This document shows positions 3,977 to 55,436 of a DNA stretch of 64,000 nucleotides, in pieces. Position 1 is the stretch's first letter. Every line of letters starts with the position of its first letter. The notes beneath the pieces are model-generated. The model was not told the DNA's origin and searched no databases. It worked only from the letters and a program-made list of their open reading frames with translations. This DNA comes from Octopus vulgaris (taxonomy: Eukaryota): the NCBI GenBank assembly GCA_951406725.2, contig OX597825.1:29202001-29266000 (forward strand). Reading direction: 5' to 3'. The translations under genes and the position numbers were made by a program.

Positions 3977-5560
3977 TTAGTTCTATCATATTTCTTCATG
4001 ATATTTACCAAAATATTTTTTGGGATTTCCTTTTTTGTTTTTTTTTCTGTTTTCATTGTTAAACCTTTGTATCTAGCTGCAAAAGTTTTTTTAGATACTT
4101 TACCATTTGTATTTCATTTTATGGAGACGACCAAAACATTATATATCACAGGTCACTTGGAAAGTTGACATTTTGAAATATCAACTGCAAACATTAAATG
4201 TCGGTAGTCAAAGAGTGGAAAGAAAAAAAATATTCTCTACTTAAAATACTAATAATGCAGTTTTTTTTTTTTTAGTTATTTATTCTTGTTTTCCATACAG
4301 ACTTGTATACTCGAATACATTTACTTTTTTGTTTTTTTTTTCTTTTTTGTTTTTGTTTATCAATCAATGTTTGTTTTTGTTTTTTTGTTTTTCGTTTCAC
4401 TACCTCACTTGTTTGTTTAGTTTTTTTTTTTTTATTTGTACTGTTACCATTTATTCCTATCATGCGCAGTTTTGTAAAGTATAAGAATTTTTAAACCAAT
4501 ACACAATCCAACAACCACTAATGAATAAATATATAAATAGACAAATAAATAAATAAATAAATAAATAAACAAATAAATAAATAAATTAATAAAACTGAGG
4601 CTTGCAGAAGAGACCGAAATATGAAACAGGACCTTAATTCTGATTTTAACCTGTGCACTAACCTGATCAAATATACATATTTAAATGTCAGAAAGCTAAA
4701 TTGTGATTAAAACTATAAAAATTGTAATTTATTTATATACATATTTATTGCATTTATTTGTATCTATATTTATTATATTTATTTATATGTATTTATGTGT
4801 GTGTCTGTGTATGCATGTATTTATTTACATGTATGTATTTTTTTTTTTTTTTTTACCATTGAACTGAAATTATCTCAAAGTTAATACCTTTGCTTGTTTG
4901 CATGTATTTTTGTGTTTTGTTATAAACTTTTAATTTGTTATATTTCTTCCATATTTTTCGTTTTTTTTTATTAAAATTTTTCCTCGTATCTGCCACATGC
5001 TATTTCTATAAATGAACAAACAAGAGAGAGAAATAGAAAATAGAGCAATAATGAGAGAGAAAGGAGAGAGGGGGAGCAAAAGATGGAGGGAGAGGAAACA
5101 AGGAAGGTATTTTAAAAAATGATTTTATGGATAGAAAACAAAAAGGAAGCTAGTTTTGGTTGTTAAAATTTCAAATGAGAATATATTATTATTAACTAGA
5201 TTTATACCTGAAACATTTTCATAGATTTTTTTTTTTCTAATTATTCCCAACATCCAAGGTTTAACTATTGGGTGGACCTGACATTTTTGGGGTTTATTAT
5301 GTTCTTCTTCTTCTTCTTTGGGAATTTATATTTTTGTGGTGTTGTTCCAATTAATTTCCTTTTTTTTTTTGTATATATATATTTTTTTGTTTGTTATTAT
5401 TACTTTGCATCTGTTAAAAAACAAACAAGTAAAACCAAACAAACAAACAAACAAAAAATGAATATTCATCATCCAATATTAAATATTTTCTATTAAACTG
5501 ATGTTATTACTGCAATATTGATAAAAATAATATTCAGTCAAACATTATATATTTATATGT
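3977..5560 (+). other. Putative 3' UTR-like region
   Basis: No SINEs, long U-rich tracts, multiple AATAAA (e.g. about 4525-4590) and ATTAAA signals. Based on composition only. Confidence 0.3.
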
Positions 5561-5652
5561 GTGTATGTGCGCGGGGGTGGGTGGGGGGTGAGTGGTTGCG
5601 CCTGCAATTATATGATATGCGTTCAAACATAATTAGTGTTTTTTCTTTTAAC

Positions 5653-5691
<39 letters not shown>

Positions 5692-5733
5692 CCTCATCAT
5701 CATCATCATCATTATTATTGTTGTTATTATTAA

Positions 5734-5770
<37 letters not shown>

Positions 5771-6099
5771 GTAATTCATAATGTAAATTGAACTAGATTT
5801 TTATTTTAAGTAGGGCTTGCATGAGGAGTTAAAACCAAGTTTAGCAACAGAATCAAACAATGAGAACAATAAGCAAATTTTAAGCACAAGACTGCTTTTT
5901 TTCTTCTTTGGCAATCTATAGATTAAAAACATGTATACATACATAAACATACATCTACACACACTCACACACATAAATATGCATGCTATACACATATACA
6001 TATATACACATATATACATAATATATAAATATATATACATATACATGCATATATATATATATATATATATAATAAATATATGTACATATACACATGCAT

Positions 6100-14007: not shown

Positions 14008-14358
14008 TTCTACTCAAGATACTGGTAATAACCCTCAACAACATGCAAATCTCAGCTTTATTCTCTGCCAAGGCTCTTTGTGTATGTCCATTTATATTGT
14101 GGCACAGTCTATTAGGAGCCAACCAATAGGGGCATTCTACTTCCACACAACAAAATGTCTGCAGTCCAGAGATCTTTGTCCAATCCCTTTTATACCTTTG
14201 AACAGGTGGTACACATATCATGGCTATTTCTGAGTACCATTGATTGGTTAGACCAGTGGTTCTCAACCAGGCTCCATTTGGCCTCTGAGGGGTCATGTAA
14301 GATTTTTTGAGGTCCATGCAGCAAAATAGTATATTGGAGATCCACAAAAATATTTTAA

Positions 14359-14578
14359 CCCTTTCGTTACTGTATATATTTTGAGATGCTAAGTGTTTCT
14401 TTCAATTACTTTAAATATAACAAAGAATTTAGTAAAATAATTTAGTTATCATTCAGCTAGTGTTAGGAACATAAATTGTGACTAAGGATTGGTGGAAGGT
14501 TTTAATTCAAAACTTATGAAAACAAGACATTTGTACTCAGAGCCAGAGGCAGTTTCAGCCAGTTTGGTAATGAAAGGG
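14359..14578. mobile_element. piggyBac-type MITE, copy 1
   Basis: TTAA|CCCTTTCGTTAC ... GTAATGAAAGGG|TTAA, i.e. TTAA TSD with CCC/GGG termini. Confidence 0.9.
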
Positions 14579-14609
14579 TTAAGGATTGTTTCTCTATTAT
14601 ATATTTTAA

Positions 14610-14829
14610 CCCTTTCATTACTGTATGTATTTTGAGATGCTCAGTGTTTCTTTCAATTACTTTAAATATAACAAAGAATTTAGTAAAATAACTTAGTTAT
14701 CATTAAGCTAGTGTTAGGAACATAAATTGTGACTAAGGATTGGTGGAAGATTTTAATTCAAAACTTATGTAAACAAGACATTTGTGCTCAGAGCCAGAGC
14801 CAGTTTCAGCTGGGTTGGTAAAGAAAGGG
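14610..14829. mobile_element. piggyBac-type MITE, copy 2
   Basis: TTAA|CCCTTTCATTAC ... GTAAAGAAAGGG|TTAA. Highly similar to copy 1 but not identical. Confidence 0.9.
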
Positions 14830-15127
14830 TTAAGGGCCCCTGAAAAAATTTCCCTTTAGATGTATGTATTGGTATGTATTGCAAGAAACAGCAAAGTTTC
14901 TTTCTTGAAAAACAAAATAGGAATTTTAAAAGAAGTTTTTATAAAACTAGTTTTTAAACATTGAATGTCTATGAGGGTCCACCAGAATAAAATAGTAATA
15001 AAAGGGGTCCATAGATAAAAAAAAAAAAAAGGTTGAGAAACTCTGTTCTACTCAGAGAATGGCTCTGCCAAGAGGGATCAGCAATCTGCTAAAATCTTTT
15101 GACTATTATTTTTTTATTACCTACATA

Positions 15128-43356: not shown

Positions 43357-43799
43357 ACTCCTTACTCTTTTACTTGTTTCAGTCATTTGACTGTGGCCAT
43401 GCTGGAGCATCACCTTTAGTCGAGCAAATTGACCCAAGGACTTATTCTTTGTAAACCTAGTACTTATTCTATCTGTCTCTTTTGCTGAGCCGCTAAATTA
43501 CGGGGATGTAAACACACCAGCGATGTCAAGCGATGTTGGGGGGACAAGCACAGACACAAGTTGTCAAGCGATGTTGGAGGGACAAGCACAGACACACAAA
43601 CACACACACACATATACATATATATACATATATACGACGGGCTTCTTTCAGTTTCCATCCACTACCAAATCCACTCACAAGGCTTTGGTCGGCCCAAGGC
43701 TATAGTAGAAGACACTTGCCCAAGGTGCCACGCAGTGGGACTGAACTGGAACCATGTGGTTAGTAAGCAAGCTACTTACCACACAGTTGCTCCTGCACC
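43357..43799 (-). mobile_element. SINE family A, full length, with an internal tandem duplication of about 38 bp
   Basis: gtcaagcgatgttgg(g/a)gggacaagcacagacaca occurs twice (about 43525 and about 43563). Confidence 0.92.
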
Positions 43800-43861
43800 T
43801 ATCTATTTACCACACAGCCATTCCTCCACCTAGCTACTTACCACACATGTATGTATACACA

Positions 43862-43898
<37 letters not shown>

Positions 43899-44081
43899 TG
43901 TTGTGTCTGTGGGAAGTCATTCTCTTTTAAAGCCTTATTAATTAACACACTCAATTATTCAATTTCCAATTACTTCTTTATTTAATTTTTTTTTCTAAAA
44001 TTTTCATTGCTTCTTGCCACCTCTTCAATAATTGTTGACTGTCTGTTATTGGAGCTGTGTTCTTTTTGTTTTATAAACACA

Positions 44082-44139
<58 letters not shown>

Positions 44140-44144
44140 ATAAG

Positions 44145-44290
44145 CTTGTTTCAATTCCAATGCACCAGATCCACTCACAAGACTTTGGTTGACCCAGGAC
44201 TATAGAAAAAGACACTTGCCCAAGGTGCTATATAGGGGACTGAACCTGCAACCATGTGGTTGGGAAGCAAATTTCTTACCATGCAACCTA
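44145..44290 (-). mobile_element. SINE family A, 5' half
   Basis: ccagatccactcacaagactttggttgacccagg...gggactgaacctgcaaccatgtggttgggaagc. Confidence 0.82.
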
Positions 44291-45104
44291 TATATTTTAT
44301 ACTTTCTTCCTCCAAGTGAAAATAGAATTTAATAAAATCAATTCTGGATGATGTCTTAGTGAATTATAACCCTTTAAGCATTGATACCAAACTAAAGCAG
44401 TAAGCCACAGAGATATCGACTTTGCTGTTTGTTCAAACTAATCTTTCAAAGGTAATTTTGTTAAAATATTGTCTTTGATAACAAGAAACCCAGCACGAAA
44501 TTACATCAGTTGTCATGGTATTCTAAACGTCAACATGTCACCTTTCCTTAATTTTTTTCTTCTTTGTCTGATGTGTATATATGAATACATCAACAGATTT
44601 CTTAGCAAGAGTGTTATAATTACTAAAAGATAAAATCTTAGACAAGACATTACTCTAGTTTATATCAATGCATTGGCATATCTAATGTCATTAGTATTAC
44701 AAATGAATAAAGCATTAATGTATATACCACTGATTGCAACTTTATATACATGTATGTATGTATATATATACATATACATATATATACATATACATATATA
44801 TATATATATATATATACACACATGTGTGCGTGTGTATACATGCTTATATATATGTTTTTATATATATAAATTTCAGGGTAGTAAAAACAAATTATTTAGA
44901 AATTTTTTAGAACATTTTTGTCTAGCGAGAAGAAAAAACTAGTCAATAGACTGTATATTATTCATATAAATACAGTGTACATTTAAACACATAAGAGATG
45001 GCCATAATAGGACATCTAACCCACTAGAAGGAGTAGTTAAAATCCAAACCACTATTAGGGGTAATTTCAAAAGCGAATGAAAAATGAAAAACATTTACCA
45101 TTTA

Positions 45105-45177
45105 TTTCCTGTACCATGATTTCAAGCTATCCTCAGCAAATAAAATAATTTGAGGCACAGCTATCATCAGCAGGAAA
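45105..45177 (-). ncRNA. Minimal type I hammerhead ribozyme (Penelope-like-element type)
   Basis: Minus strand: uuuccug-CUGAUGA-u-agcugu-g-ccuca-[loop]-ugagg-auagcu-u-GAAA-u-caug-g-UA-caggaaa. Perfect 7-bp stem I, about 11-bp stem II, 2-bp stem III with palindromic CAUG loop, GUA cleavage triplet. AATAAA lies just downstream. Confidence 0.72.
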
Positions 45178-45659
45178 GCCAAGATTAACATATAAATATG
45201 AGGTGATACAGAATATGCCTCGTGCTTACATGTTATAATTTTTCAAATCTACCGTGCAAGTGTGTTTTTTTGGGGGGGGTGGGCAGCAAATACAAAAGAT
45301 TCAGCATCTTTTGTATATGCTGCCGATTAAAGACCGTTTATATATTATATACATATCTTTCAGTCTATCTTTCTGTTTTGCGTTGACTATGAGAAGAAAG
45401 AGTACTCAATACCATAGTAGAACTTAATAATATTTATCTTTTGGTCAAGTGAGTCTCTTGCCAGCCTGGAGTTTAGTCTGTATGTCATTAAGCAAGATAT
45501 GAACTTTTCATAGCAAAACACTTACTCAGCAAATTTTATAAATGCACACACACATTTTCCCTAATATGATCTGCATTTATATTGTCTTCATGTAGAACAG
45601 TTAATTCAACAAATTGCATTATCTTGCATTCCTCACACCATATTGACATATCTGGTTTC

Positions 45660-54990: not shown

Positions 54991-55109
54991 TATATATATA
55001 TATATAAATATGTGTGTGTGTGTGGGTGGGTGGGTATATATATATACCCACAGTTCAATTTGAAAAATCCACCAGAATGAACGAAAGCGTTAATATATGA
55101 TATAAACTA

Positions 55110-55223
55110 TATGATGTATAAAAACATGTAATATACAAATAAATATCTGTAAATATAAAACCATCCGAATTTCTGAATACCTCATTTCTTCTAATATAAA
55201 ATACCTGTACATCATCTCCAAAC

Positions 55224-55279
<56 letters not shown>

Positions 55280-55381
55280 TATAAAACATGTAATATACAA
55301 ATAAATATCTGTAAATATAAAACCATCGAATTTCTGAATATATTTCTTCTAATATAAAATACCTGTACATCATCTCCAAAC

Positions 55382-55390
<9 letters not shown>
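55110..55390. repeat. Tandem duplication of an about 120-bp unit, each copy followed by (TA)n
   Basis: tatgatgtataaaacatgtaatatacaaataaatatctg...catcatctccaaactt at about 55110 and about 55273. Confidence 0.9.

Positions 55391-55436
<46 letters not shown>

What the first reader, a model, noticed from the sequence alone, without database searches (positions are those of the whole stretch)
45105..45177. Near-intact stand-alone hammerhead ribozyme on the minus strand
Seen in sequence: all core nucleotides (CUGAUGA, GAAA, GUA) occur in type I order. There is a perfect 7-bp stem I (uuuccug/caggaaa), an extended stem II (agcugu/auagcu plus ccuca/ugagg), a 2-bp stem III capped by palindromic CAUG, and AATAAA immediately after the predicted cut (between 45112 and 45111). 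Established: Penelope-like retroelements and derived non-autonomous elements carry minimal type I hammerheads whose short stem III with a palindromic loop is thought to work as a dimer. Inference: this is a relic or still-competent self-cleaving RNA with no adjacent ORF. Deviations from the canonical fold are U.U at 10.1/11.1 and U-G at 15.2/16.2.
Basis: partly seen in the sequence, partly recalled or inferred. Interest (0 to 1): 0.75.

Follow-up and report, generated by a model that had tools for sequence, protein, structure and literature searches.

The report
Decayed hammerhead in an old retrozyme
The self-cutting-RNA motif is real, but it is one aged copy of a protein-less jumping repeat with hundreds of relatives in this genome, likely pasted in by Penelope-type retrotransposon enzymes, and a mutation of its own is predicted to misfold it, so it is likely a fossil rather than a working ribozyme.

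Summary
The type I hammerhead at 45105-45177 (-) is real (only hit in the window; 0 in 100 shuffles) but not stand-alone. It lies in a 44866-45336 insertion of a 473-nt, ORF-less, head-to-tail repeat family (144 segments studied; roughly 400-500 estimated) that fits a non-LTR retrozyme. Copies end at two fixed sites about 95 nt apart, in (TA)n, often as back-to-back pairs using one end of each (28 of 29 classifiable pairs): the Penelope footprint, also seen in this genome's Neptune-like elements. The family consensus is predicted to fold as the dimeric hammerhead; this copy is predicted to trap its core (6 kcal/mol penalty) and is 6.8% decayed. 5' ends do not pile up significantly at the cut. 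Cleavage and circles are untested. The scan already reported younger sister families (360, 485, 490 nt) with this footprint; none for this family. Verdict: new member of a known kind, modest interest.

The parts
44866..45300 (-). Main arm of the insertion: 427 nt of the 473-nt retrozyme-like unit, from unit position -184 to +242 relative to the predicted cut, ending at the family's distal fixed 3' end ('B')
   Evidence: 88.0% to family consensus; 25 substitutions in 366 positions (6.8%) from its subfamily consensus
45105..45177 (-). Type I hammerhead: stem I 45177-45171/45111-45105, core CUGAUGA 45170-45164, U.U at 45163/45124, stem II AGCU 45162-45159/45128-45125, GAAA 45123-45120, stem III with CAUG loop 45120-45113, A17 45112; predicted cut 45112/45111
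   Evidence: sequence; descriptor and shuffles; two compensatory pairs in stem II between subfamilies
45119..45119 (-). C-to-U change at position 15.2; breaks the family's perfect 8-nt palindrome and creates a 5-bp pairing with the core
   Evidence: C in 59, U in 4 of 68 hammerhead-spanning segments; dimer fold penalty 6.2 kcal/mol
45101..45106 (-). AATAAA, arisen by G-to-A change; family has AATAGA; not a conserved poly(A) signal
   Evidence: AATAGA 45, AATAAA 5 of 68 segments
45300..45336 (+). Short inverted piece of the unit (about unit 283-319) joined back-to-back to the 5' end of the main arm; marks the other boundary of the insertion
   Evidence: self-hit 45282-45324; sequence comparison with the unit
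44950..44966 (-). Internal position of the family's proximal fixed 3' end ('A', unit 146-160); this copy runs through it
   Evidence: 68 of 144 segments end here, 49 at end B, 27 elsewhere
44743..44865 (.). (TA)n/(TG)n microsatellite target at the 3' boundary; a TA-rich stretch also lies at 45337-45355 on the other side
   Evidence: 104 of 117 A/B ends in the family have TATATA within -14..+20 of the end

Best explanation
This hammerhead is part of one solo, aged insertion (44866-45336) of an ORF-less 473-nt head-to-tail repeat family, a non-LTR retrozyme that was likely copied into TA microsatellites by the reverse transcriptase/GIY-YIG endonuclease of Neptune-type Penelope-like elements, and this copy is predicted to be catalytically crippled. 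Shown: the family, the unit length, the two fixed 3' ends, the back-to-back pairs, the (TA)n targets, the covarying stem II, neutral strand-symmetric decay. Inferred mechanism: multimeric transcripts of master arrays self-cleaved at GUH through dimeric hammerheads (8-bp intermolecular stem III from the palindrome at 15.1-16.1), giving 473-nt monomers that probably circularised; a PLE protein bound the RNA, nicked both strands of a TA repeat and primed cDNA from each nick at one of two internal sites about 95 nt apart; the two cDNAs were joined at their far ends, which gives the inverted pairs. Most cDNAs run through the cut site, as expected for a ligated circle or an uncleaved multimer. After insertion this copy decayed; its C15.2U change is predicted to lock core bases 6-10.1 into a wrong helix.
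For: Family: 59 matches, 2593 first-look candidates; 303 exact matches to a 19-nt motif shared with sister subfamilies, 0 for the reversed control; overlap of two exact-motif samples (3 of 36, 3 of 29) suggests 370-490 segments. Unit: 473 nt, wraps onto itself, segments up to 749 nt; sister subfamily at 69-81% with two hammerheads 450-475 nt apart; a relative at about 66% forms a 5.5-unit array with 99% identical units (L142). Ends: 68 A, 49 B, 27 other of 144; back-to-back pairs AB 28, AA 1, BB 0, 16 with an unclassified end, of 45; TATATA at 104 of 117 ends. Same two-end plus (TA)n pattern in autonomous PLEs with a CxxxxCxxC linker and GIY-YIG: 13 short, 12 long, 4 other of 29 loci. Two internal RT start sites and both-strand extension were shown in vitro for a PLE (PMC11167929); inverted copies, tails and (TA)n bias are PLE traits (10.1101/2021.04.23.441226). 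L003 joins a GIY-YIG fragment directly to the unit. Fold: consensus unit as a circle z -6.5; stem II 17-57 and 18-56 change on both sides in 8 of 22 rows, slid controls 19-42% paired against 87%; consensus dimer MFE equals the hammerhead-compatible fold (-47.2/-47.2) while this copy's does not (-50.0/-43.8); probability of an open core below all 39 core-intact relatives. Decay: CpG transitions about 15%, no strand asymmetry.
Against: No cleavage, circle or expression was measured. The mobilising PLE was not identified: none of 40 PLE-fragment loci has the unit as its own terminal repeat (two hold separate insertions), and the L003 junction is one case that could be a nested insertion. 5' ends are not significantly enriched at the cut (8 in 579 at-risk positions against 69 in 9304, p about 0.07; the strongest window is the stem II hairpin), so the genome gives no direct trace of cleavage. 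The stem II covariation is between two subfamilies and may be as few as two events; pair-type counts did not beat shuffles. No long tandem array of this exact subfamily was found (one search returned sister families). Nearest-neighbour folding ignores tertiary contacts and proteins; a PLE hammerhead was found to need its protein (PMC11167929), so the misfold could be rescued.
Confidence: 0.8

Rival explanations
1. It is the solo terminal repeat (pLTR) left by a 5'-truncated autonomous Penelope-like element, not a separate non-autonomous unit.
For: Most PLE hammerheads occur as single motifs from truncated elements (PMC4209133); the ends look like PLE ends; L003 has an endonuclease fragment directly upstream and L028 an RT fragment next to the unit.
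Against: Upstream of the hammerhead the sequence wraps into the unit's own 3' part with no ORF in many copies; the two same-strand hammerheads 3.1 kb apart on C13 flank no PLE ORF; tblastn hit 4 of 129 partly overlapping loci, two of them fetched for their PLE; the PLEs examined carry their own much smaller hammerhead-like motif.
Confidence: 0.1
2. This copy is still active and co-opted: it is transcribed with its flank and cuts a host RNA, with AATAAA serving 3'-end processing.
For: All 11 invariant core bases plus H17 are intact here, true of 40 of 68 segments; GUA is a natural, active triplet (PMC1636495); a U.U at the base of stem II still allowed 22% cleavage in one hour in axolotl (PMC7229834); contigs nearly identical to this copy and its flank occur in two runs guessed to be RNA.
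Against: Solo copy with no partner hammerhead in 64 kb; predicted core-trapping misfold, of the kind described as inactivating; decay level typical of its subfamily, 2.7-8.6%; AATAAA rare in the family and downstream of the cut, where it would lie on the 5'-OH fragment; the runs are contigs of one study at depth 3-5 and may be DNA.
Confidence: 0.06
3. It is a satellite or foldback DNA repeat spread by DNA-level mechanisms, with the hammerhead an inert passenger.
For: Many copies form inverted pairs; retrozyme arrays may also grow by unequal crossover (10.64898/2026.07.22.740005); no pile-up of ends at the cut.
Against: Fixed 3' ends with random 5' truncation, the A+B pairing rule and (TA)n targets match target-primed reverse transcription; core and stems are kept across families only 66-80% alike.
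Confidence: 0.04

Closest known systems
Metazoan non-LTR retrozymes (Cervera and de la Pena 2020, PMC7229834; mussel 350-390 nt, axolotl Rtz_353 with HHR_Amex2)
   Same: ORF-less, low-GC head-to-tail unit with one type I hammerhead; 2-bp stem III with tetraloop; highly self-paired predicted circle; U.U at the base of stem II as in HHR_Amex2; PLEs present in the same genome.
   Different: Unit of 473 nt, a little above the 150-450 nt quoted; mostly solo, partial or 1.x-mer insertions and old (median 90% to consensus); 7-bp stem I, long bulged stem II, GUA in most copies; circles and cleavage not tested here.
Penelope-like elements, Neptune type, and their pLTR hammerheads (PMC4209133; PMC11167929; 10.1101/2021.04.23.441226)
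   Same: Two fixed 3' ends (tail), inverted 5'-truncated partner, (TA)n targets, read-through of the hammerhead cut site in inserted copies.
   Different: No RT or endonuclease ORF; tail about 95 nt against 30-40 nt described; hammerhead not of the minimal type and lacking the conserved G10.1-C11.1 pair.
Non-LTR retrozymes as non-autonomous PLE derivatives (Li, Clavereau and Pollet 2026, 10.64898/2026.07.22.740005)
   Same: Co-occurrence with Neptune-type PLEs; monomers, dimers and multimers; most genomic copies expected to be inactive (1 of 9 dimers cleaved in that study).
   Different: There 24 of 57 families matched known elements, mostly PLE ends; here no parent pLTR was found, and the link rests on insertion anatomy.

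Membership tests
Type I hammerhead ribozyme | Core C3-U4-G5-A6-N7-G8-A9, G12-A13-A14-A15.1, U16.1-H17 in type I order | tested here: met
Type I hammerhead ribozyme | Three stems around the core, supported by covariation | tested here: met
   87% of cells paired, 6 pairs with double changes, slid controls 19-42%; stem III invariant, so uninformative; few independent events
Type I hammerhead ribozyme | G10.1-C11.1 pair closing stem II (highly conserved, not universal) | tested here: not met
   U.U here; G-U 40, U.U 16, G-C 3 of 68; A.A or A-U in sister families; U.U precedent in axolotl
Type I hammerhead ribozyme | Match to an Rfam hammerhead model | tested here: not met
   no hammerhead family reported
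Type I hammerhead ribozyme | Site-specific self-cleavage | not testable with these tools
   folding predicts the active fold for the consensus dimer but not for this copy
Non-LTR retrozyme | Short ORF-less unit with one type I hammerhead, head-to-tail | tested here: met
   473-nt unit; no PLE ORF in the window
Non-LTR retrozyme | Tandem dimers or multimers with a hammerhead in each unit | tested here: inconclusive
   one two-hammerhead copy in the family (L030); dimers in a 69-81% sister subfamily and a 5.5-mer in a 66% relative; the window copy is below one unit
Non-LTR retrozyme | Dispersed multicopy, no LTR/PBS/PPT | tested here: met
   copies on most large contigs; ends are PLE-like, no terminal direct repeats; PBS/PPT not searched separately
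Non-LTR retrozyme | Expressed as monomeric linear and circular RNA | not testable with these tools
   only contigs of runs guessed to be RNA; predicted circle z -6.5
Autonomous Penelope-like element | ORF with RT and GIY-YIG endonuclease between pLTRs | tested here: not met
PLE-mobilised insertion | Two alternative 3' ends (tail), inverted 5'-truncated partner, AT-rich or (TA)n target | tested here: met
   this copy has end B, a short inverted piece and TA flanks
PLE minimal hammerhead (min-HHR) | Stem I 4-5 bp, single unpaired base between A9 and G10.1, G10.1-C11.1 | tested here: not met
   7-bp stem I and a symmetric mismatch instead (against PMC4209133)

The most novel reading that the evidence does not exclude
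The 473-nt unit was a viroid-like RNA circle whose dimeric hammerhead works without the G10.1-C11.1 pair (U.U, G-U, A.A and A-U all occur across this genome's retrozyme lineage), and its fossils record a Penelope enzyme copying that circle from both strands of one DNA cut at two fixed start sites, at times jumping onto its own mRNA (L003).
Probability: 0.4. Interest if true: 0.55.

Novelty: new member of a known kind. Interest (0 to 1): 0.3.

Why it matters
For this copy alone, little: it is a decayed repeat. The family matters modestly. It extends animal retrozymes to an older lineage in this genome, adds anatomical support (two fixed RT starts, one used at each end, TA targets) for mobilisation by Penelope-like elements, a route the papers read propose but did not map this way, and gives a natural series of hammerheads with an open 10.1/11.1 position that can be assayed. 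It also shows that an intact-looking core is a poor guide to activity: one stem III transition is predicted to misfold it. I found no paper on cephalopod hammerheads or retrozymes (listings; a 2026 octopus repeat annotation has no 'ribozyme'), but the closest paper on small PLE hammerhead variants (PMC5785218) was not held and may already cover such variants.

Tried and rejected
Rfam scans gave no hammerhead. Two same-strand hammerheads 3.1 kb apart on C13 proved to be separate insertions, not a full PLE. Search for the parent PLE through the L003 fragment (protein: 150 scored of 12193 candidates, 29 other loci read; DNA: 40 scored of 1321, 11 other loci read) found none with this unit as its terminal repeat. 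Pile-up of 5' ends at the cut: not significant; 2 of 4 segments long enough to reach a second cut site stop 2-4 nt from it, too few to weigh. Constraint on core bases among copies: 34 changes against 44 expected, small and biased by how copies were sampled. Reading U10.1 as the PLE-type extra base fails because stem II then mispairs. Sequencing runs: no RNA holder listed; contigs of four runs guessed to be RNA show family-like pieces but cannot show strand, ends or level. No host exon was recognised among window ORFs (output cut, not searched against families). One duplicated C4 locus (2 segments) was dropped before the counts of 144. Look-ups of earlier notes by sequence and nearby gave nothing. 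Supplements were not read; the hammerhead alignments in PMC4209133 and PMC7229834 supplements may bear on the 10.1/11.1 variant.

Full report
Observation. The motifs are present as described on the minus strand: stem I 45177-45171/45111-45105, CUGAUGA 45170-45164, GAAA 45123-45120, CAUG loop, GUA with the predicted cut at 45112/45111. My type I descriptor finds only this site in the window and none in 100 shuffles. Rfam reports no hammerhead, at gathering score or at E<=10, probably because stem II is long (inference). The 73-mer folds better than shuffles (z -3.47), but its minimum-energy fold pairs the core with the stem III region.

It is a repeat copy. The genome is a 2.8-Gb animal assembly in 227 contigs; that it is a cephalopod is my inference and the wording of earlier notes, not verified. 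A 451-nt query gave 59 matches from 40 scored of 2593 candidates. Exact motifs gave 38, 41 and 303 matches with 0 for reversed controls; the overlap of the first two samples (3 of 36 and 3 of 29) suggests 370-490 segments, a rough figure. Aligning copies showed that the sequence upstream of the hammerhead runs into the element's own 3' part: a 473-nt head-to-tail unit without an ORF. The window copy covers unit -184 to +242 (44866-45300) plus a 37-nt inverted piece (45300-45336) and lies between TA-rich flanks. Family-like contigs were laid from four runs with four different organism labels, so the family is not private to this assembly; one run (X1) holds this exact copy across its boundary.

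What is inherited and what is this copy's own. Among 68 segments spanning the hammerhead: 10.1/11.1 is G-U in 40, U.U in 16, G-C in 3; U10.1 goes with a second change in 14 segments, defining a subfamily, so U.U is inherited. Position 15.2 is C in 59 and U in 4; H17 is A in 49 and C in 16; AATAGA follows the cut in 45 and AATAAA in 5. The copy differs from its subfamily consensus at 25 of 366 positions (6.8%; 13 relatives 2.7-8.6%), and family-wide changes are strand-symmetric with CpG transitions near 15%: neutral decay as DNA.

The fold is real at family level. A pattern for two hammerheads one unit apart returned 16 matches: 13 distinct loci counting L149/L150 once were not all the same thing, as L151 and L153 are an unrelated 360-nt array; the rest belong to sister subfamilies 69-81% like our unit. 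Their stem II reads GACU/AGUC where ours reads AGCU/AGCU: on an alignment of 22 chosen rows both pairs change on both sides in 8 rows, 87% of cells pair against 19-42% in slid controls, and 10.1/11.1 is unpaired in 15. These are few independent events. L142 holds a young 5.5-unit array (493 nt, 99% between units, about 66% to ours) with its own hammerhead, A-U at 10.1/11.1 and the same 3' end. The consensus unit folds as a circle with z -6.5 against 40 shuffles.

Predicted activity. For two consensus hammerheads the minimum-energy dimer is the hammerhead-compatible fold with an 8-bp intermolecular stem III; for this copy that fold costs 6.2 kcal/mol more than a misfold. As a monomer its probability of an open core is below that of all 39 core-intact relatives (median 0.009). 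Pairing of the CUGAU motif with the cleavage region is described as inactivating, and GUA as a natural active triplet (PMC1636495, passages). U.U at the base of stem II occurs in axolotl HHR_Amex2, which cleaved 22% in one hour as monomer and better as dimer (PMC7229834, parts 2-3 of 6). PLE minimal hammerheads were inactive as monomers and weak as dimers (PMC4209133, parts 1-2 of 4). No partner hammerhead lies in the window. These are predictions; protein assistance was reported for one PLE hammerhead.

How it moved. Of 144 segments, 68 end at unit 140-167, 49 at 233-260 and 27 elsewhere; 104 of those 117 ends carry TATATA (the unit is itself TA-rich at end A, which inflates this). Of 45 back-to-back pairs, 28 join one end of each class, 1 joins two A ends, none two B ends, 16 have an unclassified end. 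A PLE protein extends both target strands and starts reverse transcription at two internal sites that define the genomic tail, using mostly uncleaved RNA (PMC11167929, parts 1-2 of 4); inverted partners, tails and (TA)n bias linked to the CX2-5CxxC linker are PLE traits (10.1101/2021.04.23.441226, passages). This genome has many such elements (12193 first-look candidates; RT plus GIY-YIG ORFs with that linker; RT scores just under the Pfam cut-off), and 25 of 29 read end at one of two sites before (TA)n. Assignment to Neptune rests on the linker motif, which Nematis shares; no tree was built. L003 joins a GIY-YIG fragment to the unit with no remainder downstream in the locus, possibly a template switch. 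The parent element was not found.

Against my reading. 5' ends are not significantly enriched at the cut (8 in 579 against 69 in 9304, p about 0.07; 4 in 340 for the unbiased subset, p 0.21); the strongest window is the stem II hairpin. Most cDNAs therefore read through the site; a ligated circle and an uncleaved multimer both predict this, and segments of up to 749 nt (1.6 units) do not tell them apart. No long array of this exact subfamily was seen. Expression is not shown: contigs nearly identical to this copy and its flank occur at depth 3-5 in two runs of one study only guessed to be RNA.

Comparison and novelty. It works like, and on the features testable here belongs with, animal non-LTR retrozymes, proposed as non-autonomous PLE derivatives (10.64898/2026.07.22.740005, parts 1 and 3 of 5). 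Tandem arrangement is met only by relatives; circles and cleavage are untested. Searches for retrozyme or hammerhead with octopus listed no paper on the subject (listings only, passages). PMC5785218 was seen only as a title in a reference list and was not held. Earlier notes of this scan (read after my reading was written down) describe younger 360-, 485- and 490-nt families with the same footprint; they are not independent support. Verdict: a real hammerhead motif in a fossil copy of an older retrozyme family; new member of a known kind; interest 0.3.

Noticed in passing
L142:4038-6727 (G000:C2:202718537-202721226), minus strand: Young 5.5-unit tandem array, 493-nt unit, 99% between units, about 66% like the window's family; hammerhead with a longer palindromic stem III; ends in (TA)n next to a truncated PLE. 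Best candidate for a live relative.
   Followed up: partly
L151 and L153 (G000:C4:45745300-45748791; C5:111365058-111368530): Young 360-nt tandem plus inverted arrays, unrelated in sequence, whose hammerhead has a C at core position 4 and U.U at 10.1/11.1 but the same CCAUGG stem III.
   Followed up: no
L063-L091, about 480 nt past the endonuclease match: Neptune-like PLEs carry a tiny hammerhead-like motif with an A3/U8 core, 2-bp stem II and 3-bp stem I, and end at two sites about 60 nt apart; the tail holds a CCAC(G)TGG palindrome resembling one in the retrozyme tail.
   Followed up: partly
L145:5270-5320 and 5430-5800: PLE with a 762-codon open frame has a U3-A8 type minimal hammerhead in its 3' region, followed by a nested inverted-plus-direct insertion of another relative of the retrozyme (77% over 127 nt).
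   Followed up: no
window 45336 (run X7, record 32): A contig from another organism label, 3.8% diverged in the flank, stops aligning exactly at the insertion boundary with about 33 letters left over: a hint of an empty site. If so, the copy's 6.8% divergence is more than the split would allow; unexplained.
   Followed up: no
L146-L161: The sister subfamily mostly has U instead of C at core position 3, opposite G8, together with A.A or A-U at 10.1/11.1 and GUC at the cut.
   Followed up: partly
window 44934-45000: This part of the unit draws far more contigs than the rest in DNA runs, suggesting it is shared with a much more abundant repeat family.
   Followed up: no
window 14350-14835 and 55093-55432: Near-perfect two-copy tandem repeats of 251 nt and 157 nt; no hammerhead by my descriptor.
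   Followed up: no
window 43587-43896 and 44072-44281: Two inverted copies of an abundant SINE-like repeat, also present near many fetched loci.
   Followed up: no
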